Source of the DNA: a virus | Taxonomy: Duplodnaviria > Heunggongvirae > Uroviricota > Caudoviricetes | Length of the DNA: 64,000 nt | Direction: 5' to 3' (one strand) | Virus record (IMG/VR): IMGVR_UViG_3300029641_000003 | Shown: positions 19,254 to 58,441 of the stretch, piece after piece | How positions within the stretch are numbered: position 1 is the stretch's first letter | Layout: the number at the start of each line of letters is the position of its first letter | Notes under the pieces: generated by a model | Databases searched by the model: none | Told to the model about the DNA's origin: nothing | What the model saw: the letters and a program-made list of their open reading frames with translations, nothing else | Program-made: the position numbers and the translations under genes

Positions 19254-19291
19254 TTAGTAGTTAAAGCCCCGGCATGACCGGGGCAAATCTA

Positions 19292-20233
19292 TTAACTAAC
19301 AATCCAGTCAGTCGCTGCTACATCTTCTGGCTGTAAATCAATCGCACAGATCTTGCCGTCGCGAATGGTGCGCCAGTTTTTCCGTGAGCCTCTTTCGGGC
19401 CATACCCAGACACTTTCAGGCCAGGATGCTCGACGGCATACGGTTGCATACCCTGTTTTAATCTTCTCTCTGGCGGTATGCAACGACAGGTTTGCCTTTG
19501 GACTTTCAGGCACAGGATGGTGAATGGCCTGAAATAGCCCCATCCTGGGATGATACCAGCGTTTGTTGCGTGGTTCAGCCTCCGACATAACCTGCTTAAA
19601 GGCTTTCCGGAAGGGGGCCAGGGCCACAATGGAACGTCGCGCAAGCAAACCATCGGGAGTTAAAAACTCATGCGTATCAGTGGGTATCCGGTAAGCGTTG
19701 ACCAGGTTACGGCATTTGGCTTCAGTCAGGCCGCATTTTGCCGCCAACTGGCGGTAGCCAATGTAGCCTTCCGGAATATTGCCTTTCTTTATTTGCTCGA
19801 CGGTTTCAGCGACTTTGGACACTTGTGCCGATACTTCGGCTACCTGGGCATTAACGGCGTTGATCCGGCGTTCATGCTCAAGATGCATTTGCGCCATTTC
19901 GGCCAGGATTTCGGCTTTTGATTTTAACGGTCCCCTGGCATTCTCCAGTTCGCGCCAGCGGTCCACCAGCCGGGCGGTGAATTCCGGAGAGAGCTGCGCG
20001 ACGACAATGATGCTGTCTCGTTTTCCTTGTTCTCCTTCAAAGATGTAAGCCTTGGAAAATCGACGAGGGCCAACTGATTGTTTATTTTCAATTTCCTCAA
20101 TTTGAGGAAATTGAATGACACCACCTTTAGTTAATACTTCAATGGTTCGCTTCACATTATCATGACGCTTACCTACCAGTTCCGCGATCTCAATGCTGGT
20201 CATTGTCGCTTTTTGAGAGATGGACAGATTCAT
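19292..20233 (-). CDS. antirepressor-like protein (Rha/Ant family), immI-like copy 1
   Basis: N-terminal TMTSIEIAELVGKRHDNVKRTIEVL Rha-type domain; start overlaps stop of upstream small gene (ATGA); paralog at 55936-56643. Confidence 0.6.
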   Translation of the reverse strand: MNLSISQKATMTSIEIAELVGKRHDNVKRTIEVLTKGGVIQFPQIEEIENKQSVGPRRFSKAYIFEGEQGKRDSIIVVAQLSPEFTARLVDRWRELENARGPLKSKAEILAEMAQMHLEHERRINAVNAQVAEVSAQVSKVAETVEQIKKGNIPEGYIGYRQLAAKCGLTEAKCRNLVNAYRIPTDTHEFLTPDGLLARRSIVALAPFRKAFKQVMSEAEPRNKRWYHPRMGLFQAIHHPVPESPKANLSLHTAREKIKTGYATVCRRASWPESVWVWPERGSRKNWRTIRDGKICAIDLQPEDVAATDWIVS

Positions 20234-20448
20234 CAGTGCACCTCCACGCAGTTCATTGGCAGATTCCAGTAATTGAGGATCTCCATCGCATCAAGAGTGA
20301 AGCGTGCGGCAAAAATGCAGGGGTCTTCGGGAAGGTATGAGCGCGCCTCTGCTTCGGTAGCAGCCATTACGCAGATATAGAGGTGTTTTTGGCAGGAATA
20401 GAAACGCCAGATAAATTCAGAATGAGTTGGGGTAGGGATAGTAGCCAT
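20233..20448 (-). CDS. Icd-like small protein, copy 1
   Basis: 71 aa with EFIWRF...AATEAEAR, motifs I recall from Icd-like proteins; AGGAGG RBS; paralog at 56643-56867. Confidence 0.5.
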   Translation of the reverse strand: MATIPTPTHSEFIWRFYSCQKHLYICVMAATEAEARSYLPEDPCIFAARFTLDAMEILNYWNLPMNCVEVH

Positions 20449-21249
20449 ATTGGCAGCCTCCTTTGACTAAGTTAAGGAGCTACCGCGTGAGGTTCCAATC
20501 TCAATGGCGGTAGCACTGACTGGGTTGGAACTACCGGCGTCAAAGGGAACCGGCCTGCCTTTCGGCAGCCCAGCCAGCACTACCATTGATCTCTGAGCTA
20601 AACGCTACGTATGGCTGTGCGATGGCATGACACAAAAAAAGACGCTTTCGGCGTCTGTGTCGCCTTTGACATTATCCGGGGTTCCAATCCCGGCACCCGT
20701 TTTTCTAAGGTGCCGTAGAAATATACCCCACGATAATGCCAGGGCGCAACAGTCAGTATTTTATGCTTTGGCAGATTTCTTTCGGGCTTGCTTGCAGGCG
20801 TAGGCCATTGCTTTAGCTTTCACTTCATCCAGCTTTCCGGTGATCACTTCTTTTCCGAGAGTGACAAACCAGTCATAGCAACCGCCAGTGATGTTCTGGA
20901 TTTGAAAGTTGAGATAGCGAACGGTCATTTTGACACCCCCAGCGCGAGTAAAGAATGCAGATTATCGCGTGAGTGGCGGACAACGAGTGATGGGAAAAGA
21001 CAGTAGCTGTTCATAGTGTAGTGACTCCTTGCTTTCGGAGCCGCCATCGACTGTTCCACGGTCTGGTGGCGGCGCAATAAAGGTTGGAACACCGTGAGTC
21101 AACGGGGGCTTTTCAGCCACCTATATTGCACCGCCATTGGTATGGCGGCGGCAATCATACGAAAAACCAAACGGTTTGTCTCAAAAAGTTGACCGGTGTA
21201 CCAATCGGTTGTGAATGTACAACGGCGAATTTCACAATTCAACTTAAAA
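20449..21249 (-). other. structured untranslated leader between operator and icd-like gene; candidate c4-like antisense RNA region
   Basis: About 800 bp with no credible ORF, several hairpins (GCTACCGC...GCGGTAGC; CTGCC-TTTC-GGCAG) and an internal intrinsic terminator (GACGCCGAAAGCGTC plus T7) at 20630-20665. Confidence 0.3.
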
Positions 21250-21260
21250 TGTTAGAAAAT
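21250..21260. promoter_or_regulatory. operator half-site TGTTAGAAAAT
   Basis: Exact core motif at the head of the immI-like leader. Confidence 0.4.
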
Positions 21261-21835
21261 TAATTTATTAATTCAGTCACCATCTGATACAACGTCATTT
21301 CATCAGCATTGTGCCGCCTGAAATCTGCTTTGCCGCCTATTTTTCCATCAGCATGAACAGGGACCAACCAAGGGTATTGCTCGCGGATCTCTGCTGGCGC
21401 TGCGTGTTGATGGTGCCATTTACACAAAGGGAGGACGTATTTATGCGCGTTCTCTGCTGTTCTCCCGAAGATGTGGTGCAGGGATACCACAGGGCTATGC
21501 TGTCCGTGCATATGGCAGGCAATGCAGGGGAGAGCACCGATGGCAGTTTGTATCCGGCGCTCATCTGCTGTGAGTGTTCTGCCTTTCAGGCCGCGTGACG
21601 CGCGAGTTTTTTTGACAGGAGCAGAAGCGGCCTTCTCTTTTCTTCGCTGTTCATATTGCTTCGCTTTTTCAATTTTCTTTTGCCGATATTCAGGCGATGC
21701 GGCTTTTTCTCGCGCACGCTGCTGCTGGCGTTGAGCTTGCTGAAGACGCTTTGCCCTTTGTTCCTCCCGCCATTTCGGATCAGCCAGTTTTTGCAGGGCT
21801 TTTTGTGTCTGTTTCTCCCAATAGCTTTGCTTCAT
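21260..21835 (-). CDS. ref: Ref-like HNH endonuclease (track ORF extends to TTG at 21877)
   Basis: LPCIACHMHGQHSPVVSLHHIFGRTAENAHKYVLPLCKWHHQ HNH motif; Lys/Arg/Gln-rich N-terminus; start taken at ATG 21835. Confidence 0.7.
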   Translation of the reverse strand: MKQSYWEKQTQKALQKLADPKWREEQRAKRLQQAQRQQQRAREKAASPEYRQKKIEKAKQYEQRRKEKAASAPVKKTRASRGLKGRTLTADERRIQTAIGALPCIACHMHGQHSPVVSLHHIFGRTAENAHKYVLPLCKWHHQHAAPAEIREQYPWLVPVHADGKIGGKADFRRHNADEMTLYQMVTELIN

Positions 21836-42497: not shown

Positions 42498-42573
42498 TGG
42501 TGGCCCCTACCGGACTTGAACCGGTGACCGTGCGATTATGAGTCGCCCGCTCTAACCACTGAGCTAAAGGGCC
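42498..42573 (-). tRNA. tRNA-Ile (anticodon CAU, ileX-like)
   Basis: 76 nt GGCCCTTTAGCTCAGTGGTTAGAGCGGGCGACTCATAATCGC...GGTTCAAGTCCGGTAGGGGCCACCA; cloverleaf with CAU anticodon and encoded CCA; near-identical to E. coli ileX as recalled. Confidence 0.8.
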
Positions 42574-43529: not shown

Positions 43530-43605
43530 TGGTGCCGGTTAACGGACTCGAACCGCTGACATCCTGCTTACAAGGCAGGCGCTCTACCAACTGAGCTAAA
43601 CCGGC
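43530..43605 (-). tRNA. tRNA-Thr (anticodon UGU)
   Basis: GCCGGTTTAGCTCAGTTGGTAGAGC...CTTGTAA...GGTTCGAGTCCGTTAACCGGCACCA canonical cloverleaf. Confidence 0.85.
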
Positions 43606-43607
43606 AT

Positions 43608-43682
43608 TGGCGATGGTGGATGGATTCGAACCACCGACCAGTTGGTTAACAGCCAACTGCTCTACCACTGAGCTACACCATC
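43608..43682 (-). tRNA. tRNA-Asn (anticodon GUU)
   Basis: GATGGTGTAGCTCAGTGGTAGAGC...CTGTTAA...GGTTCGAATCCATCCACCATCGCCA; 2 nt from tRNA-Thr. Confidence 0.85.
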
Positions 43683-48235: not shown

Positions 48236-51200
48236 TTAGGCCGCATCGGCGATTATTTTACGCAGTTCATCTACCGAGTAACGCGTAGATACCATCCATG
48301 CCGGACGGTCAAAGTTCACATCAGCAACCGGGTTTGCTTCAAAATTCCAGAAACGCCCGCCAATCTTCTTAATCGCGTCTTTGGCGTTTCGTATTGTCGA
48401 GGAACCAGGTTGGTCGGCAATGAGATAAACCGCGCCAACGTCCTCGCTGACGCTCCACCAGCGCCCGCGAACACGCGCCTTAGCGCGAATCGGCTTATCA
48501 TTAACCACAATGATATAGTCATCATTCGCCGCTTCATCAGCTCTGGCTTCAGCCACTGCCGCCTGCTCTTCTCTTTTGCTTTCAGCCTGTTCAAGCCTTT
48601 CCGCGATCTCTGATTCGGTGGCCCCGCCGTTTTTCAGCGATACATAGTCTTGCCACGTAGCTGATTTGAGCGCATCCGGCAACTCATTCACATAGTCACC
48701 GTCTTTCAACTCACGGGCGCGGCGGGTAGCCATTTCTACCAGGCGATTAACAGAAACAGCATCAGCAAAATCGTCCTTACTAATTTTTTCATCAAATGCA
48801 TTGATGACAGCCCCCACCTTAATCCACTGTGCTGCCGGTGATTCCAGGGGGTTATCAGCCTGGACTATGGCGAGTTTCGCTCCATCTACCCCATTATTCG
48901 CCAGCTGTTCCAGTGCCGCCCATCCATCTGCATCACTGAGTGATTTATATTGCTCAAACAATGCATCGCGCCAGGCCACCAGCGCAGAACGTGTTTTTTC
49001 GATCTTCGTCTTAATTTTCGCGATCTTGACCTGATTAAACATCCGTTCAATATCATCGATATTGCTAAAGGCTTTCATCCTGCCCTGGAATAAACGGTAT
49101 GCCAGCACGGTCCTCCAGAATGATTCCAGACCTTCTCCGGACGGTTTGCGGAACAAGCTAAGAATATCTTCAGAAGTGACTTTATTAAGCGAACGACCTG
49201 ACAGACCACGCCCAGCCATCCAGTTTTCGAACTCCTGGGCAACATCATCCATCGTTGCCTGTGCGCCCCATGCCTGCATTCCCTGGATGTAATCATACCC
49301 ATACAATGCCTGGAGGAATCCCTCACCGTCCACGATATTCAGCGGGTTATCACTGGCTTGTATTTTTGCCACTTCACGCTTCAGCGCCTCATCGTTGCCA
49401 TCTGGATATATCCATCGTTCAGGTGCTATATCCGATGCTCGCCCGATTTTTTGGCCTATCACGCCATCATAGGCCGATGACAGCGCGATCTGACCATCAT
49501 CTGTGCGATATGCCCAGTATTTAATAGCTGACCCACCGCCCCATGCATTACCAGGTTTACCAGCAATAACATTCATTACCCCATTGCGAATAGCATCATA
49601 GAACTGATCGCGAGTAAGTATTGTTGATAGCTGGTGGCACTGAACACCACGCGCAGCCGTTGCGCGCGATTCAGCTACCCCCTCTTCAAAAGTTACCGCT
49701 TCAATCACAGAGTCAAACGGCAATGTAACGATTGACCCCGGTGATCGAGCGTAACGACTTGCTCTATCCAGCCAGGCGATACGGCAGAGGTATTGTGCTT
49801 TTTCACCGTCAATTTTTTCCACCCGGACAATCGCTGTTGTTTCGCGATCATCAATGACTGCACGGTAATAACTACCTTTATGCAACAGGATATTCTTGTC
49901 AGTGCGCATATATTCCTGTGGGTTCTGAATAACATCGATACTGATATCCAGCACACCAGACTTAATAGCGCGCTCCACATCACCACGAGAGCGTTTCATT
50001 ATGGTATCCGCGTCTTTTGCCCTGGTGATCGCAAACCGCAGCACCCGCGCACGTTTTCTGTAGCTACTCAACTGCTCAAGCGCGAATTTTTGCCCATTCC
50101 TGTTCGTACCCGCTTTTATCAGGTCGTCAAGATTTCGCTGGTAATACTCTATCTGTTCCATCGCGCTTTTCAGTTCTGTCTCCATCATGCCGATATCTTT
50201 TCCAGCGGCGTTTGCCGCTTTCAGGTAGATATCGAGAGCATTGTTGGCCTCGCGCTGTGCTTTCAGTTTCAGACGTTCTTCACGCTCTTGCGCCTGGCGA
50301 GCCATGATTGCGCGGCGTTCTTCCGGGTTTGCCGCCAGCATAATGGCGCGTTCATCAGCATCATCCGCATCACCATTGGCGATCTCTGACATGTCGGAGG
50401 TCATCACCATCTTGATCCAGTCTTTCTTACGTTTCAGCGTATCCAGACGGAAGTCGTCGAATGTGCCTTTGCCACAATAGTAGTGAACATTGACCTTCTC
50501 TTGCGGTGAACCTACGCGCGCACCGCGCCCATTTCGTTGGTCGATACTGGCTGGTGTCCAGGGTAGTGTCAGGTGGTGGATATCGGTTGTCCCGATATGC
50601 AGGTTAATACCTACTTCAGCCTTCTTGTTACAGATAATGATGCGCGTGCGCCCTTCGTTATAGTCGGCGGCAATGCCTTCCATACCCTCAAGGCCAGCAT
50701 CATTTTTAGCTGAGAGATAATCCTCATATTGGGCAAGTTTGCTGTAGTAGGTTTCCCATGCCCCTTCTTTGTATTCACCGTTTTTATTCGGAGTAGGTTC
50801 AGTCGGCTTATTCACCTTCTTCAGCTTGATGCCGCCAGCCTGGCTAACGGTCGTCGCATTGATAATGCCTATCTCCTGCTCCGGCATTTGCAGTGCACTG
50901 GCGATAATACGGCGCAGCTTCTGGTGCTGGGCTTTTTCATCAATGAAGACAATTTGTTTACCGTTCTTCAGACCTTCACGAAGGTTTTCGATCAGCGCGG
51001 CATACTTCGGCGGGATGGGGTGTGATACCTGCTGCAGATCAATCCCGGCGGCAGCAATGGCCTTCAGTATTTCAGCTTCCAGTTCAATGCTGGCGCGTAT
51101 TTCAACATGCACCGGATGTTCACTAAAGGTGGTCTTCACTACCTTGCTGGTACGTGTATTGACCAGTCCACCAGCGCCGTCTTCTTCGACCTCGTCTGCA

Positions 51201-54200
51201 TCATCTGCCACTTTACCGCCAGCTACTTTTGGCAGGGCATCAGCAATAGCTTTTACCTTGTCTGCAAGCTCAACGGGGAACTGGAATGTAATCGCACTGG
51301 CATACAGATCCGGATCTATAGCAACCTTATCCATGTCGCGGATGATGGAGAAGATGAAATCATCCGGTTTTTCGTTTGTGATATGCCCGTTTTCATCAAC
51401 CGTCAGCGCATCTTTACTACTTAACTCCTGTGCACGCTTACGAAGTTCTTCATAAGCAGCCTCCTGCTCCCCTGTCATCGGGATCTGCAAGGTATTCTCG
51501 ACAATATCAGGGATTTTAACCGTCGCCCCGACGTCCGCAGCAGTCTTCAGAGTAGTCCAGCGATGGAAAATACCACGCAGGCCATCAAGGTTCTGGAAGC
51601 CAACCAGCCCCTGCTTCTCTTCCACTTCCCCGGAAATTTTCTGGACCTGAACTGTGGCTGTTTTACCAAACACACGAACGAAATCATCAGGCGTAATGAT
51701 GCCCATGCGCATCCACTCTTCCTGCGGAATGACAGTAGACAGCATGTTGAAGGCATCAATCGGACTGTTCACCAGCGGTGTTGCCGTCAGCATGACTACA
51801 CCACGCCCGTTGTTGCGTTTCATCATGTACGCAGCTTTTACAGCCATGTCGCGGGCCATCTTGGATACTGCCGGGTTAGGCAAATATGCCAGTTGTCCCG
51901 CTTCACGCCCGGCATTAAAGGAGTTGCGGTAGTTATGCCCCTCGTCGGCAATCACGCTATCGAAGTTCATATCCTCAAAGTACGGGATATTCTGCTTCTT
52001 CGTTGTACCGGTATTCGCGGCCTGATCCTTAATCTTGTTCTTCTTCTGCGCATCACGGTGTTTACCAGACGCCAGGTCAAGACGCCCCATTTCCACAGCA
52101 TTAAAGACAGCTTGCTGTGAGTTCTCCTCGATGGTTTTTTCTCGTAGCGGGATAGACGCGAATTGTTCTTTTGTCATGATGACCGTTCGCCAATTTGACG
52201 ACGGGATCATGTTCATGCGCTGAACGATAACGGCGCTGGCGGACTCTTTCACAACATTTCTGGTAAGAGGCTGCCCGTTACTGTCGAGGCGGGGTTCGCC
52301 ATTTTCATCAAGCACCGGCGCGGTCAGAATATTGCCGTCTTCATCACGAACCTCATCCAGACCGATAAACATCATATTGGCGAAGGCATCAGCACTGTAG
52401 AAGCTCTGTGCCTCGTGATACCAGTTCTGATAAACCGCCTTCGGAACAACAATACACGTGCGTTTAGTGCGACCTGTTTCGAAGTTATACGCCTCAAGCG
52501 CAAGCGCAGTCGTGGTTTTACCCAGCCCGGTACCAAATCCCATGATGCCGCGCCCATCTTCTGACAAGCGACGAACTTCTTCATTCTGATAAGTCAGAGG
52601 AATGCGCTTTCCACTAATCCCTTCCAGGCCAAGCGGTGCGTTAGAGTGCGTAAACGGAATGAAGCCATTGAATGCGTCGTTATAGTCACGGGCTATCTGA
52701 TCCGCCTGCGGGTGGGTGCGTAACCAGTCGTTAAAACTAACTTCCAGTTGAGCAATTTTATCCAGGTACTCGTTAGCGTTCTGCCCACGCGGTTTAACAC
52801 CGTTCAGGTAGTTTTCTAACTGGTTCAGGAAGCCGTCTTTATTGTTGGCCTTCTTGAACTCATTCCCGTTTTTGCCGTTTACGGTTCGTAGTTGATAGCC
52901 GGTAAATACCCCGTCCTTACCTTCGTAATCGTCCGGAGATACCAGAATGCCATCGACGACCTTCAGATCAGGTTCAGTGTACTTAAACTCGTCATAGCCC
53001 TGCTCTGCCAGGAACTCTTTTATCAAGCGGCGATCCAGCCAGCGGGCGTTCAGATTAACGGTGACTTTATTTAGTGGCGTGAAAATGCGTTTCTCTTCGA
53101 TTTTCGCCAACTGACGCTCAAAGTTCGCTTTCTGCTCACCTGTTGACGCATCACGCCAACCCACCAGCAATGTTGTTTTGGTTGCAATATCGCCGCTGGT
53201 GGCGCGGTCCATCGGCAGCAGGCAGCCATACCCATCAATAGCGATATCATCAAATTTCGCCAGGTATTCAAGGGCCGCGTCGTCGTCCTCTGGCAGTTCA
53301 CCAGCAAACGCCTCACGAAAGTCGCCCAGCGTTATAGGATTAAGGGCTACATCACTGAAAAGATGTGCTATCACTTGTTCAGGACGTGTAAAGTCAATAC
53401 CGGCAGCACCATCCGTTACATCAAGTCGCCCTGCCAGAAGGTCAGAAGTGGAACCATCCTGTTTCACATTGCCAGTGAACGTCATCCAGTTTTTAGCGCC
53501 AGCTTCTGCAAGCCCATTCAGCTTAATCGCGTGCGGTGGTCCATACTTCGCAACTTCTGCTGCCGCCAGGCGGGATGCATCTGCCAGTTTGTCATCAACG
53601 TTCACCCCCAGGTTACGCAAATCAAGTGCCTTGTTGATCAACTGCCCTATCAACGCACCGCGCATAACGCGCTCCCTGTCTTTTTCTCGCTGTTTGCCAG
53701 CAAAGCGAATCATTGCTGCCACTTCATCACTGACAACCGATGGATAGTCGGACGCGATCGCCGATATCTGGTCCCATGACAAAGCCAGAATCCCGTTTGT
53801 TGACTGGAACGCGATCTGCAGATCGCCAAACGTCGAAACACCATATCGACTTACATCAAGCGCGGAGGATTTGGTTGTCGTGTCCTTAACCCATTTCAGA
53901 CCATCAAACTCATGCCAGATACCGCCTACAAGGCGTTTATCGCCCACTTTCGCGCCCTGCCATGCCTGAGTAGTTACGCCGAGCAAATCCCAATTGATGC
54001 GACTATCAAAGCGACGAGATAGCGCGGTTTTCATCGACTCATTGGATACACGACCGTCTTTTTTCACCACCAGGGTATTGCGGAAGCTGGTGCGTTCCAT
54101 GTCGCCGTAAACAAATCGCTTCCCTTCGGTTGTAAACCATTTCCCTTTGAGGAAGGTATCCCAAAGGACGTTTGCCGATTTGAGCGTTGCATCATCCGTG

Positions 54201-55084
54201 TCGGGGATCATCTCCAGGAAGGTTTCCGGGTGTTTACGCAATACCCATACGTCCACCACCGTATCTGTACCGGATTCGCTGAACGTACCAGAAGGCATAC
54301 GATGCGCGCCCAAAAATTCCGCTTTACGGCTGACTTTATCGCGCAATTTTTTGTATTTCGTACCATCGGTCATGCCATTCGGCACCACCAATACAATTAG
54401 TCCACCAGGCTTAACCTTGTCGATTGTGCGCAGCACAAAGTAATTGCCAACGTTCTTCTCGTTTGCATATGCCGGATCAAGCCCGGCGACACCGGAACGC
54501 CCTTCACCAAACGGTACGTTACCAACAGCGTGATCATACATTGCGTCTTTCGCCGCCAGCGCCTCAAACGCCCCGATATTCACATCGTCTTCCGGGTGCA
54601 AAAGCTGGTTTATTCGACCGGAAATCGGAGACAGTTCGGCGCTGGTCATTATCATGCCCTGCCGTTTTGTCTCCTGGAAAATACCTGTGCCCGCTGATGG
54701 TTCCAGTACGTGCCCGCCATCAATACCGTAGTCAGCAAACAGATCCCATATACCTTCAGCCATAAACTGTGGCGTGTAGTATTCGTATTGGCTGCCCTCA
54801 CCATCTGTCAGGCCGCCTTCACCGGTATACCCGGCAAGAATCTGACGTTGTTCGTCAGTTAATTTCGCCCCATCGAAGCCGGGCGGAAGGGAATTAAGAA
54901 GATTTACTGCGGCGTTGTTTGCTGCCCGGCGTGTTTTCTGAATACTGACGCCATCGACTTTCTTAACGCCAAAGGTCACTACAGCTCGCGGTTTATGCAA
55001 CCGACTAACAATTTCAATCAGCGCCCCAATGCTGGTGGCCTGGCTAATTGAATCAATTATTTTGTCCAAAGGAAGCCCCCTCAA
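48236..55084 (-). CDS. darB: DarB-like antirestriction protein (N6-adenine methyltransferase plus SF2 helicase, 2282 aa)
   Basis: Single 6.8-kb frame; SAM motif VLEPSAGTG in N-terminal region; helicase Walker A GFGTGLGKTT and DEGH box (SVIADEGHNYRNS); size matches P1 DarB. Confidence 0.85.
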   Translation of the reverse strand: MRGLPLDKIIDSISQATSIGALIEIVSRLHKPRAVVTFGVKKVDGVSIQKTRRAANNAAVNLLNSLPPGFDGAKLTDEQRQILAGYTGEGGLTDGEGSQYEYYTPQFMAEGIWDLFADYGIDGGHVLEPSAGTGIFQETKRQGMIMTSAELSPISGRINQLLHPEDDVNIGAFEALAAKDAMYDHAVGNVPFGEGRSGVAGLDPAYANEKNVGNYFVLRTIDKVKPGGLIVLVVPNGMTDGTKYKKLRDKVSRKAEFLGAHRMPSGTFSESGTDTVVDVWVLRKHPETFLEMIPDTDDATLKSANVLWDTFLKGKWFTTEGKRFVYGDMERTSFRNTLVVKKDGRVSNESMKTALSRRFDSRINWDLLGVTTQAWQGAKVGDKRLVGGIWHEFDGLKWVKDTTTKSSALDVSRYGVSTFGDLQIAFQSTNGILALSWDQISAIASDYPSVVSDEVAAMIRFAGKQREKDRERVMRGALIGQLINKALDLRNLGVNVDDKLADASRLAAAEVAKYGPPHAIKLNGLAEAGAKNWMTFTGNVKQDGSTSDLLAGRLDVTDGAAGIDFTRPEQVIAHLFSDVALNPITLGDFREAFAGELPEDDDAALEYLAKFDDIAIDGYGCLLPMDRATSGDIATKTTLLVGWRDASTGEQKANFERQLAKIEEKRIFTPLNKVTVNLNARWLDRRLIKEFLAEQGYDEFKYTEPDLKVVDGILVSPDDYEGKDGVFTGYQLRTVNGKNGNEFKKANNKDGFLNQLENYLNGVKPRGQNANEYLDKIAQLEVSFNDWLRTHPQADQIARDYNDAFNGFIPFTHSNAPLGLEGISGKRIPLTYQNEEVRRLSEDGRGIMGFGTGLGKTTTALALEAYNFETGRTKRTCIVVPKAVYQNWYHEAQSFYSADAFANMMFIGLDEVRDEDGNILTAPVLDENGEPRLDSNGQPLTRNVVKESASAVIVQRMNMIPSSNWRTVIMTKEQFASIPLREKTIEENSQQAVFNAVEMGRLDLASGKHRDAQKKNKIKDQAANTGTTKKQNIPYFEDMNFDSVIADEGHNYRNSFNAGREAGQLAYLPNPAVSKMARDMAVKAAYMMKRNNGRGVVMLTATPLVNSPIDAFNMLSTVIPQEEWMRMGIITPDDFVRVFGKTATVQVQKISGEVEEKQGLVGFQNLDGLRGIFHRWTTLKTAADVGATVKIPDIVENTLQIPMTGEQEAAYEELRKRAQELSSKDALTVDENGHITNEKPDDFIFSIIRDMDKVAIDPDLYASAITFQFPVELADKVKAIADALPKVAGGKVADDADEVEEDGAGGLVNTRTSKVVKTTFSEHPVHVEIRASIELEAEILKAIAAAGIDLQQVSHPIPPKYAALIENLREGLKNGKQIVFIDEKAQHQKLRRIIASALQMPEQEIGIINATTVSQAGGIKLKKVNKPTEPTPNKNGEYKEGAWETYYSKLAQYEDYLSAKNDAGLEGMEGIAADYNEGRTRIIICNKKAEVGINLHIGTTDIHHLTLPWTPASIDQRNGRGARVGSPQEKVNVHYYCGKGTFDDFRLDTLKRKKDWIKMVMTSDMSEIANGDADDADERAIMLAANPEERRAIMARQAQEREERLKLKAQREANNALDIYLKAANAAGKDIGMMETELKSAMEQIEYYQRNLDDLIKAGTNRNGQKFALEQLSSYRKRARVLRFAITRAKDADTIMKRSRGDVERAIKSGVLDISIDVIQNPQEYMRTDKNILLHKGSYYRAVIDDRETTAIVRVEKIDGEKAQYLCRIAWLDRASRYARSPGSIVTLPFDSVIEAVTFEEGVAESRATAARGVQCHQLSTILTRDQFYDAIRNGVMNVIAGKPGNAWGGGSAIKYWAYRTDDGQIALSSAYDGVIGQKIGRASDIAPERWIYPDGNDEALKREVAKIQASDNPLNIVDGEGFLQALYGYDYIQGMQAWGAQATMDDVAQEFENWMAGRGLSGRSLNKVTSEDILSLFRKPSGEGLESFWRTVLAYRLFQGRMKAFSNIDDIERMFNQVKIAKIKTKIEKTRSALVAWRDALFEQYKSLSDADGWAALEQLANNGVDGAKLAIVQADNPLESPAAQWIKVGAVINAFDEKISKDDFADAVSVNRLVEMATRRARELKDGDYVNELPDALKSATWQDYVSLKNGGATESEIAERLEQAESKREEQAAVAEARADEAANDDYIIVVNDKPIRAKARVRGRWWSVSEDVGAVYLIADQPGSSTIRNAKDAIKKIGGRFWNFEANPVADVNFDRPAWMVSTRYSVDELRKIIADAA

Positions 55085-55221: not shown

Positions 55222-55707
55222 ATGGCAAACATTGAACCTCGCTGGCTTATTGAGGCCCGTAAAAATATTGGAGTCACCGAAATAAAAGGAGCGAAACACA
55301 ATCCAGAGATCGTTCAGTTCTGGCGGGATATTAAGCGCAGCGGAATTAAAGACGACGAAACGCCGTGGTGCGCTGCATTTGTTGGTGCAATGCTGGAACG
55401 TGTAGGTATCCGCTCAACAAGATTTGAGTCGGCAAAATCCTATCTGGATTGGGGCGAGAAATTAGATACACCGGCATACGGATGTATCGTTGTATTTACC
55501 CGCGTAGGCGGTGGGCACGTAGGCTTCGTTGTCGGACACCGCGCCAATGGCGATCTGCTTGTCTTGGGTGGGAACCAGGGGGATGCTGTTAATATTCGCG
55601 CATTCCCAACATCAAGAGTGTCTGGCTATCGCTGGCCTGCTGGCGAACCACGCAATACAGCTCTGTTACCAGTCGGAGACGCAGCAACCTCAACTAATGA
55701 GGCATAA
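55222..55707 (+). CDS. CHAP/NlpC-P60-like cysteine peptidase domain protein
   Basis: Candidate catalytic Cys in ETPWCAAFVG and His in GGGHVGFVVGH. Confidence 0.5.
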   Translation: MANIEPRWLIEARKNIGVTEIKGAKHNPEIVQFWRDIKRSGIKDDETPWCAAFVGAMLERVGIRSTRFESAKSYLDWGEKLDTPAYGCIVVFTRVGGGHVGFVVGHRANGDLLVLGGNQGDAVNIRAFPTSRVSGYRWPAGEPRNTALLPVGDAATSTNEA

Positions 55708-55731
55708 AAAAGCCCCGGCCAAGCCGGGGCA
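55704..55731 (-). terminator. intrinsic terminator after immI-like copy 2
   Basis: GCCCCGGC-CAA-GCCGGGGC hairpin followed on minus strand by a run of 6 T. Confidence 0.5.
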
Positions 55732-55738
55732 TCACACT

Positions 55739-55951
55739 TCAAGTTACGATCCAATCATTACCGACTGCATCCGCCGTCGATAAATCGACTTCCCGGATCT
55801 GGTATCCATTAATACAAAACCATCCAGTAGTAGAGCTATTATCAGGCCAGACCCATACACCAACACTCCATGCTTTACGGCGGCACACTTCAGCCTGTCC
55901 TTCCCTGATTTTTTTTACCGCCTGCATGATGTCCATCACTCGCCTCCCCAA
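55739..55951 (-). pseudogene. C-terminal segment of Ant-like protein in shifted frame
   Basis: Product aligns with the C-terminal tail of the copy-1 Ant (CRRKAWSVGVWVWPD vs CRRASWPESVWVWPE; DWIVT vs DWIVS) but is in another frame from 55936-56643. Confidence 0.4.
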
Positions 55952-56643
55952 CCGATTACCTGGAATTGCCCCATCCTTGGGTGATACCAGCGTTTTCCTC
56001 GGTGTTCAGCCTCCGACATCATCAGGGTAAAGGCATTCATGAAGGGAGATAAGGCCACAATAGTACGACGCGACAATACCCCCTCTGGCGTCAAAAACTC
56101 ATGCGTATCTGTGGGGATCCGGTAAGCGTTGACCAGGTTACGGCATTTGGCTTCAGTCAGGCCGCATTTCGCCGCCAGTTGGCGGTAGCCAATGTAGCCT
56201 TCTGGTATGTTGCCTTTCTTGATCTGCTCGACGGTTTCAGCGACCTGGCTAACCTTTGACTCAACAGCATGAAGCCGCTTTTGCTGCTGAACTGCATTCG
56301 CAGCCATTGCAGCGATCATCTCTATTTCGGTCAACGGCTGGCGTACTTGTTCTTCCAGTTCGCGCCAGCGGTCCACCAGCCGGGCGGTGAATTCGGGAGA
56401 GAGCTGCGCAACGACAATAATGCTGTCTCGTTTGCCTTGCTCGCCTTCGAAGACGTAAGCCTCAACGCCACGACGCAATCCTAAGTTATTGATTTTTTCG
56501 AAAACAGCCATTGGCGGTTTTCGGATAATGCTTCGAGCAACCATACGCTCAATACTACGTTTAACGTCAGAGTGTTGACTTCCCACCAGCTCCGCAATCT
56601 CAATGCTGGTCATTGATAGTTTTTCGAGAATGCAGATATCCAT
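55936..56643 (-). CDS. antirepressor-like protein (Rha/Ant family), immI-like copy 2, C-terminally truncated by frameshift
   Basis: Paralog of 19292-20233 with identical central block (VFEGEQGKRDSIIVVAQLSPEFTARLVDRWRELE); ends early at GWGGE. Confidence 0.6.
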   Translation of the reverse strand: MDICILEKLSMTSIEIAELVGSQHSDVKRSIERMVARSIIRKPPMAVFEKINNLGLRRGVEAYVFEGEQGKRDSIIVVAQLSPEFTARLVDRWRELEEQVRQPLTEIEMIAAMAANAVQQQKRLHAVESKVSQVAETVEQIKKGNIPEGYIGYRQLAAKCGLTEAKCRNLVNAYRIPTDTHEFLTPEGVLSRRTIVALSPFMNAFTLMMSEAEHRGKRWYHPRMGQFQVIGWGGE

Positions 56644-56867
56644 CAGTGAGCCTCCGCAATGCCGGGATTGGTAATATTGCGATACCAGGGATTAGTGTTT
56701 GGTTGTGGGGAAGTAGAGAAACGACCAGTGAGAACGCCATACTGATCAGGGATCAGAGAACGGGCTTCTTTTTCAGTTGCGGCAATTGCGAAGTGATCAC
56801 AATGTTTTTGCAGGGAGTGGAAACGCCAGATGAATTCTGGGCGTGAGCAATGATTGGCATTAACCAT
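56643..56867 (-). CDS. Icd-like small protein, copy 2
   Basis: EFIWRFHSLQKH...AATEKEARS, paralog of 20233-20448; start of ant overlaps its stop. Confidence 0.5.
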   Translation of the reverse strand: MVNANHCSRPEFIWRFHSLQKHCDHFAIAATEKEARSLIPDQYGVLTGRFSTSPQPNTNPWYRNITNPGIAEAH

Positions 56868-57196
56868 AGTTACGGCCTCGTAAGTTGATAAACAACCTGC
56901 GACCCGCTGTCAAACAGGTGGCAGGACGTGACAGGGTTGACAGACTGGCACTTACGAAACCAGCAGGCCGAAGCCTCCCCATCACGCCCCACCATAATTC
57001 GGGCGTAACGTGGTTTTACGGACACAAAAATACCGCAATATCGGAAATGTGCGGTTGTCCGCGTAAGTATTCAGGCTGTCAAACCTGGTCGCAGAATTTG
57101 CTACGACGGCATGAATATAAGCCTGAACATTAGAAAGATCAACAGAATTTTTATCAAATGCTGTTTTTTAGTGACAATGTAAATCATACATTCTTG
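56868..57196 (-). other. structured untranslated leader, copy 2 (candidate c4-like RNA region)
   Basis: No ORF; hairpin CCGCA...TGCGG followed by U-run ending TTTTTGTGTC, the same tail as in copy 1. Confidence 0.3.
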
Positions 57197-57226
57197 ATTA
57201 GAAACATCAATTTAATTTTCTAACAT
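57197..57226. promoter_or_regulatory. operator pair ATTAGAAACAT ... TTTTCTAACAT
   Basis: Inverted motif-family half-sites at head of immI-like copy 2. Confidence 0.45.
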
Positions 57227-57282
57227 AGATTTTCGAGCGATGAAATTCCCGCCGCACGGTTATTGTACAGTCAATCGCAACA

Positions 57283-58242
57283 TCATCCCCGAAAGCCCTC
57301 CGGAATTGACCAGTCTTCCCGGTCAAATTCAGACCGATAGCCACGCTGTATCATCAGGTCAAATGCTTCATTGATGGTTGCACATCCCTGGGAACCAGAA
57401 TAATCCATAGAGAAATCCAGGGCGCTGGATCGTTTGGGCTTATTCACTGTGGTAGCACTACGTAACCATGCAAATTTTTTTGCCAGTTTTTCAGCGGTAC
57501 GATACAGAGCCTGCCGTTTTGCGTACCCCTCGTCTGAACGACGCTTTGCAGCTCTCGCTTTTGCTGCCGCCAGGCAGTGGTTGGTATGTTCTTCCCTGAT
57601 TACTGTTTTTTTATCCAGCAAGCCATTATCCGCTTGAGAACTATCTGCTGGTGAAGCCTTTGGCTGAACCGCGCATGATCTTTCTCTTCTTTTGGCTATA
57701 GAGTGACTCTTATTTTCTATTGGCTGTTCATTTTGAACATGGGGGGGCTTGTTCAATTTGAACAGGGGGTTCCCAGTTTCAAAAAAATAACGAACCTTTG
57801 AAATCAACTGCTTAACCAGTTTTGTGGCGTTGGCAAATTTGATGCCCTGCTTACTCCCTATCTCCATTGCTACATGAATGAAGTGGAGAAATTGTGTTGT
57901 AAACCGGTACACGTTACACACCTGAGCATTGTTATTCGCTACCTGATGCTGCTTAACAAGCATTCCGCACTTCGTCGCTTCGGCAAATGCCCGGCGCACA
58001 GTAGAAATACTGCGTCCTGTAATCTCGGACATATCCGCATATGAGCGACGGATCATGTATTCATCGGTAGCTCCTGCCAGGTTGGCGAACTCGGCAATAA
58101 TGGCGCTATGTGAAGGGGAAAGAAAACCGCTATGACGAGCAAAAAAACTCAACTGATGACCTTTGATTTTTTTGTGGTATTCAGTGTTGTTTTTATACTC
58201 AGAAGTGTTGAAAGTAACTGAAACTGAATTTAAAATACTCAC
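57283..58242 (-). CDS. putative replication/regulatory protein with HTH (RepL-like by position)
   Basis: 319 aa; HTH MSEITGRSISTVRRAFAEATKCGML; operator 170 bp upstream; adjacent to immI-like module as kilA-repL is in P1. Confidence 0.3.
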   Translation of the reverse strand: MSILNSVSVTFNTSEYKNNTEYHKKIKGHQLSFFARHSGFLSPSHSAIIAEFANLAGATDEYMIRRSYADMSEITGRSISTVRRAFAEATKCGMLVKQHQVANNNAQVCNVYRFTTQFLHFIHVAMEIGSKQGIKFANATKLVKQLISKVRYFFETGNPLFKLNKPPHVQNEQPIENKSHSIAKRRERSCAVQPKASPADSSQADNGLLDKKTVIREEHTNHCLAAAKARAAKRRSDEGYAKRQALYRTAEKLAKKFAWLRSATTVNKPKRSSALDFSMDYSGSQGCATINEAFDLMIQRGYRSEFDREDWSIPEGFRG

Positions 58243-58412: not shown

Positions 58413-58425
58413 TGTGTTAGAAAAT
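58413..58425. promoter_or_regulatory. operator half-site TGTGTTAGAAAAT
   Basis: Exact 13-bp motif between pro-like stop and RepL-like start. Confidence 0.45.
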
Positions 58426-58441
58426 TAAGCTATCTTTTAGC

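What the first reader, a model, noticed from the sequence alone, without database searches (positions are those of the whole stretch)
55739..57230. Second paralogous immI-like module whose ant gene is broken by a frameshift
A second operator-leader-Icd-Ant module exists 35 kb from the first, with a diverged leader that keeps the same U-run tail (TTTTTGTGTC). The Ant paralog ends prematurely (GWGGE stop) at a GGGG run, and the C-terminal tail homologous to copy 1 continues in a shifted frame as ORF 55739-55951. I recall only one immI in P1. Two antirepressor circuits, one possibly decaying or using frameshifting, would be unusual.
Basis: seen in the sequence. Interest (0 to 1): 0.65.

Follow-up and report, generated by a model that had tools for sequence, protein, structure and literature searches.

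The report
Second P1-type antirepressor operon, split gene
This is an intact second copy of the P1-style antisense-RNA/antirepressor switch of a D6-like plasmid prophage. The supposed frameshift is a conserved boundary between the antirepressor gene and a small downstream gene, so the finding is largely ordinary and already annotated.

Summary
The sequence observation is correct. A second c4–icd–ant module lies at 55712–57224 (minus strand), and the 65-aa ORF after its ant gene matches the C-terminal 65 residues of the 313-aa Ant of copy 1 (40% identity).

The interpretation as a broken gene is not supported:
- The junction GGTTGGGGAGG[C/T]GAGTGATGGAC is identical in phage D6, eight D6-like plasmids and 17 IMG/VR contigs.
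- 97 of 5,426 complete E. coli genomes match this stretch at 80% identity or more.
- The "GGGG run" is a GGAGG ribosome-binding site 6 nt before an ATG that overlaps the ant stop (TGATG). The icd/ant junction has the same layout.
- The two copies differ at the linker by a 16-nt unrelated stretch, not a 1-nt indel.
- Ant ends at a domain boundary.
- The small ORF is a weak Tad2-like (DUF2829) match, a family that occurs both standalone and fused.
- In most relatives a stop two codons before the ATG excludes a frameshift fusion.

Each module has its own C4 loops matched to its own targets, so the two circuits look orthogonal.

One caveat: the small ORF is less constrained at protein level (omega about 0.85) than the fused paralog (0.12). 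It still varies 2–3 times less than neighbouring synonymous sites.

The duplicated module is already annotated in D6 and noted for pYU39_89.

The parts
57210..57224 (+). C1-type operator-like site (ATTTAATTTTCTAAC) overlapping the -35 of the upstream promoter-like site
   Evidence: the 15-mer family occurs 21 times against 3.0 expected. Position is analogous to P1 Oc4/Op51.
57114..57210 (-). Two tandem sigma-70-like promoters (TTGATG-16-TATGAT at 57210..57183; TTGATC-17-TATATT at 57142..57114)
   Evidence: They align with the region of P1 P2c4/P1c4. Consensus matches only; not shown to be active.
57061..57082 (-). a1 (TTGACAG, 57082..57076) and b1 (ACTTACG, 57068..57062) decoy/target sites for C4 RNA
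   Evidence: Rfam c4-a1b1, 55.2 bits. Watson-Crick complementarity to the C4 a' and b' loops.
57021..57054 (-).
   Evidence: Read. Invariant between the window, D6 and P1.
56914..56999 (-). C4 antisense RNA, copy 2 (b' loop UCGUAAGU, a' CUGUCAA)
   Evidence: Rfam RF01695, 69.6 bits, E 1.7e-11. Nearly identical to P1 c4 except the b' loop.
56876..56913 (-). a2 (TTGACAG, 56913..56907) and b2 (ACTTACGA, 56885..56878) targets; b2 abuts the icd Shine-Dalgarno GAGG
   Evidence: b2 changed together with b' and b1 relative to P1.
56643..56867 (-). icd-like gene (74 aa)
   Evidence: phrog_1426, E 2e-38. NCBIfam phage_ICD_like. omega 0.04.
55936..56643 (-). ant2: Rha/Roi-type putative antirepressor, 235 aa, complete
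   Evidence: Pfam Phage_pRha. phrog_63, phrog_1726 and phrog_6610, the last ending at residue 234. 119 of the best 120 database homologs are 235 or 232 aa.
55943..55947 (-).
   Evidence: Sequence. Invariant in all relatives.
55739..55936 (-). Small ORF (65 aa, ATG 55936..55934 overlapping the ant2 stop as TGATG); Tad2-like/DUF2829-like domain; D6 orf17
   Evidence: phrog_7385, E 4e-47. Pfam PF11195 below threshold in 6 of 7 family members. Foldseek top hits are Tad2 / Tad2-like proteins. Intact in 25 of 27 relatives.
55909..55916 (-). A8 homopolymer inside the small ORF (codons V-K-K-I)
   Evidence: Length 8 in 26 of 27 sequences. This argues that the reading frame is maintained.
55703..55730 (-). 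Intrinsic terminator (GCCCCGG-loop-CCGGGGC + T run) closing the operon after the small ORF
   Evidence: Relatives vary only in the loop. Copy 1 has a homologous hairpin at about 19265-19285.
57283..58242 (-). repL-like lytic replication gene immediately upstream, with its own operator-like site at 58416-58430
   Evidence: D6 orf20, 'similar to P1 repL'..
19292..21265 (-). Copy 1 for comparison: operator-like site 21251-21265; 55-aa ORF 20761-20928; isrK-like leader 20635-20713 with a1 (20681-20687) and b1 (20663-20670); C4 20503-20590; a2 20492-20498; b2 20460-20467; icd 20233-20448; ant1 19292-20233 (313 aa) with fused Tad2-like domain 19295-19489

Best explanation
The region is the second of two complete P1-immI-type operons carried by a D6-like plasmid prophage.

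Layout (shown): a C1-type operator and promoters are followed by a leader with a1/b1 sites, the C4 antisense RNA, a2/b2 sites over the icd ribosome-binding site, icd, a Rha/Roi-type antirepressor (235 aa), a 65-aa Tad2-like protein and an intrinsic terminator.

Mechanism (inferred from P1): C4 RNA processed from the same transcript pairs through its a' and b' loops with a2/b2. This blocks icd translation and, through translational coupling (TGATG overlaps), the genes downstream. When C4 control is overcome, Icd, Ant and the small protein are made together.

The supposed frameshift is the normal boundary between two translationally coupled cistrons (shown). The stop overlaps the start, with GGAGG 6 nt upstream. 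The same domain that is fused to Ant in copy 1 is a separate polypeptide in copy 2. The two modules have non-cross-reacting C4 loop/target pairs, so they are independent circuits (shown at sequence level only).

Not shown: that the Rha-type proteins inactivate the D6-type C1 repressor, that the small ORF is translated, and what the Tad2-like domain does.
For: - Module completeness: Rfam C4 and a1b1 hits. Loop/target complementarity holds only within each copy.
- Covariation: relative to P1, b', b1 and b2 changed together while the rest is almost invariant.
- Regulation and boundaries: operator-like sites, promoters and a terminator placed after the small ORF.
- Junction conservation: identical in D6, eight plasmids from E. 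coli, E. marmotae and Salmonella and 17 IMG/VR loci. 97 of 5,426 complete E. coli genomes match this 401-nt stretch, all on plasmids.
- Colinearity: all three ORFs are intact and colinear in 24 of 25 modules.
- Domain boundary: phrog_6610 and phrog_1726 profiles end at or before the Ant2 C-terminus.
- Small ORF as a recognised standalone family: phrog_7385, with distant standalone homologs in other phage-plasmids of about 90 kb that are not next to a Rha gene.
- Tad2-like assignment: Pfam, Foldseek against PDB (top 17 hits all Tad2) and Foldseek against BFVD.
- Not neutral decay: 25 variants in 195 nt, against roughly 58-82 expected at the synonymous density of the flanking genes. The A8 run keeps its length in 26 of 27 sequences. 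Terminator stems are invariant and only the loops vary.
- Not a recent frameshift: the tail is only 40% identical in protein and about 55-60% in DNA, next to 84-93% identical ant DNA.
Against: - Within D6-like alleles the small ORF shows 6 synonymous against 19-20 nonsynonymous variants (omega about 0.85). By that internal test it cannot be told from neutral. It differs significantly from the adjacent ant2 third (Fisher p = 0.002) and from the fused copy-1 domain (omega 0.12).
- A few disrupted alleles exist: L030 with A7, and P0002, P0003 and P0007.
- There is no expression or proteomic evidence.
- The Tad2-like assignment is below Pfam's gathering score. The AlphaFold model is only moderately confident (pLDDT 69.5) and the Foldseek E-values are weak (0.015-0.2).
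- Antirepressor activity of the Rha-type proteins is inferred from position and family names only.
Confidence: 0.72

Rival explanations
1. Ancient, fixed gene fission followed by loss of function. The ancestor of copy 2 had a fused Ant like copy 1. A linker rearrangement split it. Ant2 works without the tail, and the 65-aa ORF is a dispensable remnant that survives only because too little time has passed.
For: - omega is about 0.85 in the small ORF, against 0.12 for the fused domain and 0.13 for adjacent ant2 codons.
- Occasional broken alleles exist.
- The GGAGG and the TGA are partly constrained by ant2 coding, so their conservation alone is not proof.
Against: - Total variant density is 2-3 times below the flanking synonymous density.
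- The mutable A8 run is kept at length 8 in 26 of 27 sequences.
- The ATG sits exactly at the domain start.
- The residues invariant across the family alignment (I10, C18, R19, R20, W23, W28, P31, D56, D61, W62) are retained in all nine intact protein alleles. G13 changes in only one allele.
- The ORF is intact in 25 of 27 relatives.
- Standalone homologs exist elsewhere.
Confidence: 0.2
2. Programmed -1 ribosomal frameshifting (or transcriptional slippage) near the GGGG/GGAGG stretch yields both a short Ant and an Ant-Tad2-like fusion from copy 2.
For: - The small-ORF frame is -1 relative to ant2.
- In the window allele that frame is open for 23 codons upstream of the ATG (L014-type).
- An SD-like GGAGG can stimulate frameshifting in other genes (general knowledge).
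Against: - By eye, no X XXY YYZ heptamer is visible in the last 22 ant2 codons (sequence).
- In 11 of the 16 intact IMG/VR alleles, and in D6, the small-ORF frame has TGA two codons before the ATG (GGAGGTGAGTGATG). No usable overlap window remains.
- A canonical SD-ATG is present.
Confidence: 0.03
3. Sequencing or assembly error at a homopolymer, so the true gene would be a single 300-aa ant.
For: Short G and A runs lie near the junction.
Against: - The junction is identical in 26 independent assemblies, including phage D6 and RefSeq plasmids.
- The difference from copy 1 is a 16-nt non-homologous linker, not a 1-nt indel.
- Hundreds of database contigs encode the 235-aa form.
Confidence: 0.01

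Closest known systems
Bacteriophage P1 immI operon (c4 antisense RNA - icd - ant1/ant2, controlled by Op51/P51a,b)
   Same: - Same order: operator/promoters, a1 b1, c4, a2 b2, icd, ant.
- The c4 region and the icd 5' end are about 88-90% identical to P1 DNA.
- The same a' specificity is used, and icd/ant are translationally coupled.
   Different: - The b'/b1/b2 specificity has switched.
- By the Pfam and PHROG assignments, the ant gene is a Rha/Roi-type protein, unlike the gene P1 annotates as ant1/ant2 at this position. The two proteins were not compared directly here.
- An extra 65-aa cistron follows ant.
- repL lies upstream instead of downstream, and no kilA is present.
- The element carries two such operons.
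Escherichia phage D6 orf17-orf20 and orf82-orf83 (NC_050154), and D6-like plasmid prophages such as pYU39_89
   Same: - Identical gene order and the same split (orf18 235 aa plus orf17 65 aa) and fused (orf82 313 aa) arrangements.
- 92.6% and 89.4% DNA identity.
- The second c4/icd region was noted in PMC6799933.
   Different: Only allelic differences. In the records I could read, orf17 is 'hypothetical protein', with no link to the Ant C-terminal domain or to the Tad2-like fold.
Tad2 / DUF2829 (Pfam PF11195; SPO1 Tad2, PDB 8SMF and others), a phage sponge for Thoeris gcADPR signals
   Same: - Similar size (65-90 aa).
- Predicted helix, four strands, helix, strand.
- Full-length Pfam alignment.
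- Top Foldseek hits in PDB and BFVD.
- The family occurs both standalone and fused.
   Different: - Scores are below curated or significant thresholds.
- Ligand-binding residues were not assessed.
- Here the domain is attached to, or co-translated with, an antirepressor under C4 control. I know of no precedent for that context.
Salmonella Gifsy-1 isrK-orf45-anrP (antirepressor) locus
   Same: The copy-1 leader matches Rfam isrK (62.7 bits). It precedes a C4-like RNA and an antirepressor operon.
   Different: This applies to copy 1, not to the flagged copy 2, whose leader is P1-like. The functional equivalence was not tested.

Membership tests
P1-type immI (c4-icd-ant) immunity operon | C4 antisense RNA with tRNA-like fold encoded upstream of icd on the same strand | tested here: met
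   Rfam RF01695, 69.6 bits against a gathering score of 45. About 95% identical to P1 c4 outside the b' loop.
P1-type immI (c4-icd-ant) immunity operon | a'/b' loops complementary to a2/b2 at the icd ribosome-binding site, and to a1/b1 upstream | tested here: met
   Watson-Crick matches of 7-8 nt for both loops at both target pairs, in cis only. b', b1 and b2 covary relative to P1.
P1-type immI (c4-icd-ant) immunity operon | icd ORF translationally coupled to a downstream antirepressor gene | tested here: met
   Icd-like family hits. TGATG overlap with GGAGG 7 nt upstream.
P1-type immI (c4-icd-ant) immunity operon | The ant product antagonises the C1 repressor | not testable with these tools
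   Only family names (phrog_63 and phrog_1726, 'anti-repressor') and gene position are available. By family assignment the protein is Rha/Roi-type rather than the type P1 annotates as Ant1/2.
P1-type immI (c4-icd-ant) immunity operon | C1 operator controlling the operon promoter | tested here: inconclusive
   A member of an over-represented 15-mer family (21 observed against 3 expected) overlaps the -35. Binding by a D6-type C1 was not shown.
Frameshifted pseudogene | Disruption absent from close relatives, or variable among them | tested here: not met
   The junction is invariant in all D6-like sequences examined.
Frameshifted pseudogene | The downstream fragment evolves neutrally and accumulates stops and indels | tested here: inconclusive
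   The internal omega of about 0.85 is compatible with neutrality. Against that, variant density is 2-3 times below the flanking synonymous density, the A8 run is maintained, and 25 of 27 alleles are intact.
Programmed -1 ribosomal frameshift | Slippery heptamer within a conserved overlap of the two frames | tested here: not met
   No heptamer was seen by eye. In most alleles the overlap is closed by TGA two codons before the ATG.
Tad2-like / DUF2829 (PF11195) | Pfam match at or above the gathering score (25 bits) | tested here: not met
   16.7 bits, E 0.011, for the window ORF. The best family member reaches E 6.2e-5. 6 of 7 members hit, over the full profile length.
Tad2-like / DUF2829 (PF11195) | Tad2 fold | tested here: inconclusive
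   The AlphaFold model has pLDDT 69.5. The top 17 PDB hits are all Tad2 chains (E 0.16-1.2, TM about 0.5). BFVD top hits are Tad2-like/DUF2829 proteins (E 0.015-0.07, probability 0.93-1.0).
Tad2-like / DUF2829 (PF11195) | Binding of gcADPR or related Thoeris signals | not testable with these tools
   Needs biochemistry.
Rha family phage regulators (PF09669) | N-terminal Phage_pRha domain above the gathering score | tested here: met
   31.0 bits (Ant2) and 37.5 bits (Ant1) against a cutoff of 29.9. 75% identity to the N-terminal 107 residues of HK629 Roi.

The most novel reading that the evidence does not exclude
The Tad2-like module may be a genuine nucleotide-signal binder of the Thoeris gcADPR/His-ADPR type. 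D6-like phage-plasmids would have wired it into their antirepressor circuits. In copy 1 it would be fused to Ant, so a host defence signal could gate prophage induction. In copy 2 it would be released as a free, fast-evolving sponge co-expressed with Ant. That would couple the lysis-lysogeny switch to sensing or evasion of anti-phage defence.
Probability: 0.07. Interest if true: 0.7.

Novelty: already known. Interest (0 to 1): 0.2.

Why it matters
The main value is corrective. The flagged frameshift should not be treated as a pseudogene or sequencing error. The duplicated immI module is a standard, already annotated feature of D6-like plasmid prophages, and about 1.8% of complete E. coli genomes match this stretch.

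Three smaller points may interest specialists:
- The two C4 circuits are orthogonal. The copy-2 circuit is a P1 c4 with a coordinated b'/b1/b2 specificity switch, a clean natural example of antisense-specificity covariation.
- An Ant C-terminal domain of weak Tad2-like character exists both fused and as a separate coupled cistron within one genome, under very different protein-level constraint.
- The paralogs recombine, giving chimeric alleles.

Tried and rejected
- Sequencing error: rejected by 26 identical junctions.
- A 1-nt slip at the GGGG run: rejected by the copy1/copy2 DNA alignment, which shows a 16-nt non-homologous linker difference.
- Programmed frameshift: rejected, with no heptamer and the overlap closed in most alleles.
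- HK629/HK97 Roi as a yardstick for the Ant C-terminus: uninformative. Similarity covers only residues 9-112.
- Sequence searches for the 65-aa domain gave very few hits. The word-indexed search found 3. The 1.84-billion-representative HMM search found 7. tblastn against 50,697 phages found only D6.
- PDB sequence-profile searches gave only chance hits. NCBIfam had nothing for Ant2 or the small ORF.
- Clustering of nonsynonymous variants, as a sign of diversifying selection, was not significant (P = 0.18 and 0.38).
- The Gilcrease & Casjens 2018 D6 paper (PMC5800970) is not held, so I could not check what it says about orf17/orf18.
- The afdb50 fold library was unavailable.
- The RNA duplexfold energies were not used, because the numbers are implausible for whole-sequence duplexes. 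Only exact complementary stretches were used.
Full report
**What the window is**

The flagged stretch and its surroundings are 92.6% identical over 2.9 kb to Escherichia phage D6, a P1-related plasmid prophage. The junction region is 100% identical to RefSeq plasmid NZ_AP019805.1. The D6 annotation already lists, in the same order:
- repL (orf20)
- an Icd-like protein (orf19)
- 'anti-repressor Ant, similar to HK97 Roi' (orf18, 235 aa)
- a 65-aa hypothetical protein (orf17)

A second Icd/Ant pair (orf83 and orf82, 313 aa) lies elsewhere in D6.

**Checking the observation**

On the minus strand, Rfam finds two C4 antisense RNAs, at 56914-56999 and 20503-20590. It also finds the c4-a1b1 target element at 57068-57120 in copy 2 and an isrK-like RNA at 20635-20713 in copy 1. 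Both leaders contain a hairpin followed by TTTTTGTGTC.

Icd-like ORFs of 74 and 71 aa precede Rha-domain proteins. Ant2 (235 aa) aligns with Ant1 residues 1-237 at 66% identity. The next ORF aligns with Ant1 residues 249-313 at 40% identity, E 6e-17, and its ATG falls exactly at the start of that alignment.

A 15-mer, AATTAATTTTCTAAC, occurs 21 times in the window against 3.0 expected. One copy sits at each module and one lies before repL. These are plausible C1-type operators.

**Is ant broken?**

Six lines of evidence say it is not.

1. The junction GGTTGGGGAGG[C/T]GAGTGATGGAC is the same in several independent sources:
   - phage D6
   - eight D6-like plasmids from E. coli, E. marmotae and Salmonella
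   - all 17 copy-2-type IMG/VR contigs
   - in addition, 97 of 5,426 complete E. coli genomes match this 401-nt stretch at 80% identity or more, always on plasmids

2. The 'GGGG run' contains GGAGG (55943-55947), 6 nt upstream of an ATG (55936-55934) that overlaps the ant2 stop as TGATG. The icd/ant junctions of both copies use the same layout, GGAGG-N7-ATG inside TGATG. This is the usual signature of translational coupling.

3. The DNA alignment of the two copies shows 84-93% identity up to codon 230. A linker follows in which copy 2 is 16 nt shorter and otherwise unalignable. The tail then has only about 55-60% DNA identity. That pattern does not fit a recent 1-nt indel.

4. Ant2 ends at a domain boundary. 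PHROG profiles phrog_6610 (122 positions) and phrog_1726 (264 positions) end at Ant2 residues 234 and 214. Only phrog_63 carries the extra C-terminal segment.

5. Of the 120 best database homologs of Ant2, 118 are 235 aa and one is 232 aa. The remaining one (P0057, 306 aa) is a chimera with a copy-1 tail.

6. In 11 of the 16 intact IMG/VR alleles, and in D6, the small-ORF frame has TGA two codons before the ATG. A frameshift fusion is therefore not possible there. No slippery heptamer is visible by eye in the window allele either.

**What the small ORF is**

It matches phrog_7385, a 65-position standalone family (E 4e-47). Distant homologs at 31-38% identity are standalone genes in other phage-plasmid-like contigs of about 90 kb, from Raoultella and others. 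They are not next to a Rha gene.

Evidence for a Tad2-like fold comes from three sources, each weak on its own:
- Pfam Tad2-like (PF11195, formerly DUF2829) aligns over its full length but below threshold, at 16.7 bits. It hits 6 of 7 family members, best E 6.2e-5.
- An AlphaFold2 model (pLDDT 69.5; helix, four strands, helix, strand) retrieves only Tad2 chains as its top 17 PDB matches (E 0.16-1.2, TM about 0.5).
- The same model retrieves Tad2-like/DUF2829 proteins as its top BFVD matches (E 0.015-0.07).

Some of those matches are standalone proteins of about 65-85 aa, and others are fused into larger proteins. I regard the Tad2-like assignment as probable but not proven. Nothing here shows ligand binding.

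**Is the small ORF under selection?**

The evidence is mixed and I report both sides.

Against constraint: among 25 copy-2 sequences (10-11 distinct alleles) there are 6 synonymous and 19-20 nonsynonymous variants. That gives omega of about 0.85, which is not distinguishable from 1 by that internal test. Comparable values are:

| Region | omega |
|---|---|
| icd2 | 0.04 |
| middle third of ant2 | 0.11 |
| C-terminal third of ant2 | 0.13 |
| homologous domain fused in copy 1 | 0.12 (48 synonymous : 19 nonsynonymous) |
| small ORF | about 0.85 |

The small ORF differs from the adjacent ant2 third with Fisher p = 0.002.

For constraint:
- Overall variant density in the small ORF is 0.13 per site. 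This is 2-3 times below the synonymous density of the genes on either side (0.42 and 0.30 per site). Roughly 58-82 variants would be expected under neutrality, against 25 observed.
- The slippage-prone A8 run (55909-55916) has length 8 in 26 of 27 sequences.
- The residues invariant across the family alignment are retained in all nine intact protein alleles, apart from G13 in one allele.
- 24 of 25 modules have all three ORFs intact and colinear.
- The terminator stem after the ORF is invariant, while its loop varies.

My reading is a translated small protein under relaxed or partly diversifying constraint, not a decaying remnant. The remnant reading keeps about 20% probability.

**How the module most likely works**

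By analogy with P1 immI (annotation), transcription from operator-controlled promoters yields a transcript from which C4 is processed. The C4 loops a' and b' pair with a2/b2 and occlude the icd ribosome-binding site. Through coupling, this also blocks ant and the small ORF.

The window supports this directly at sequence level. In copy 2:
- b' (UCGUAAGU) pairs with ACTTACGA next to the icd SD, and with ACTTACG upstream.
- a' (CUGUCAA) pairs with TTGACAG at both sites.

Copy 1 uses different pairs, CCUUUGAC with GTCAAAGG and GUUCCAA with TTGGAAC. No cross-complementarity exists in the loops.

Against P1, the copy-2 region is nearly identical except that b', b1 and b2 have all switched together, from GTTAGT to ACTTAC in the targets. 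This is textbook covariation and shows selection for a working antisense pair.

The steps not shown are antirepressor activity of the Rha-type proteins, C1 binding to the 15-mers, and any role for the Tad2-like domain.

**Fused versus split**

Copy-1-type loci are fused (313 or 308 aa) in 14 of 17 IMG/VR contigs and in D6; two of the others are damaged and one is cut by the contig end. Copy-2-type loci are always split. Chimeric alleles (P0057, L042) show that the paralogs recombine within the conserved central ant segment.

The direction of change, fusion or fission, cannot be settled. Standalone homologs and antirepressor families that end before the domain slightly favour fusion in copy 1.

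**Comparison with what is known, and novelty**

The module is a member of the P1 immI kind, with three differences: a Rha/Roi-type ant, a switched b specificity, and an extra cistron. It is the same locus as D6 orf17-20.

The presence of a second c4/icd region in D6-like plasmids is stated in PMC6799933 and is implicit in the D6 annotation. The P1-like phage RCS47 also carries a second isrK/c4-like stretch with an ant gene next to c1. 'Two antirepressor circuits' is therefore not unusual in this group.

I did not find in the accessible literature the link between orf17 and the Ant C-terminal domain, its Tad2-like character, or the contrast in constraint. My search was limited, and the primary D6 paper was not available.

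**Verdict**

The 'frameshift-broken ant' interpretation is not supported. The feature is ordinary and already annotated, with a minor unexplained point about the evolution of the small ORF. Interest is 0.2.

Noticed in passing
window 1130-58430 (21 sites, e.g. 10220/10233, 21883/21896, 41059/41072, 44997/45010, 21251, 35220, 57210, 58416): The 15-mer AATTAATTTTCTAAC (up to 3 mismatches) occurs 21 times against 3.0 expected. Most sites are intergenic, and several form back-to-back divergent pairs. These are probably the D6-type C1 operator set.
   Followed up: partly
window 20635-20713 (-): The copy-1 leader matches Rfam isrK (Gifsy-1 Hfq-binding sRNA; 62.7 bits). It contains that copy's a1/b1 C4 target sites and a terminator-like hairpin.
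   Followed up: partly
window 56878-57068 compared with P1 (L048): The copy-2 c4 region is almost identical to P1 immI, except that the b' loop, b1 and b2 changed together (targets GTTAGT to ACTTAC). This is a coordinated switch of immunity specificity.
   Followed up: yes
P0057 (306 aa) and L042:2128-3198: Chimeric ant alleles have a copy-2-like head and the copy-1 fused tail. This shows homologous recombination between the two paralogous modules.
   Followed up: partly
L049 (phage RCS47 103405-103807 and neighbouring ant next to c1): The P1-like phage RCS47 (and JL22) carries a stretch 88-90% identical to the copy-1 isrK/c4/icd-5' region. In RCS47 the stretch is unannotated and lies beside an 'ant' gene next to c1; JL22 was not inspected. 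A second c4-type module is therefore not confined to D6-like elements.
   Followed up: no
window 55934-55947 and 56641-56655 (-): The icd/ant2 and ant2/small-ORF junctions share GGAGGC..TGATGGAYATC, and both downstream proteins start with MDI. This could be chance, or the coupling junction may have been copied.
   Followed up: no
window 55909-55916 (-): An A8 homopolymer lies inside the small ORF. One IMG/VR relative (L030) has A7 and a shifted start region.
   Followed up: yes
window 42501-42573, 43533-43605, 43611-43682 (-): Three tRNA genes, as in P1-family phages.
   Followed up: no
window 56329-56643 (-), ant2 codons 1-105: The Rha/HTH N-terminal third of ant2 is far more variable among D6-like alleles than the rest of the gene. 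It has 111 nonsynonymous variants and omega about 0.46, against 0.11-0.13 for the other thirds. This suggests allelic replacement or specificity diversification.
   Followed up: no
window 48236-55084 (-) and 55222-55707 (+): A DarB-like methyltransferase/helicase of 2282 aa and a CHAP/TIGR02594-type peptidoglycan hydrolase flank the module, as in D6 orf15/orf16.
   Followed up: no
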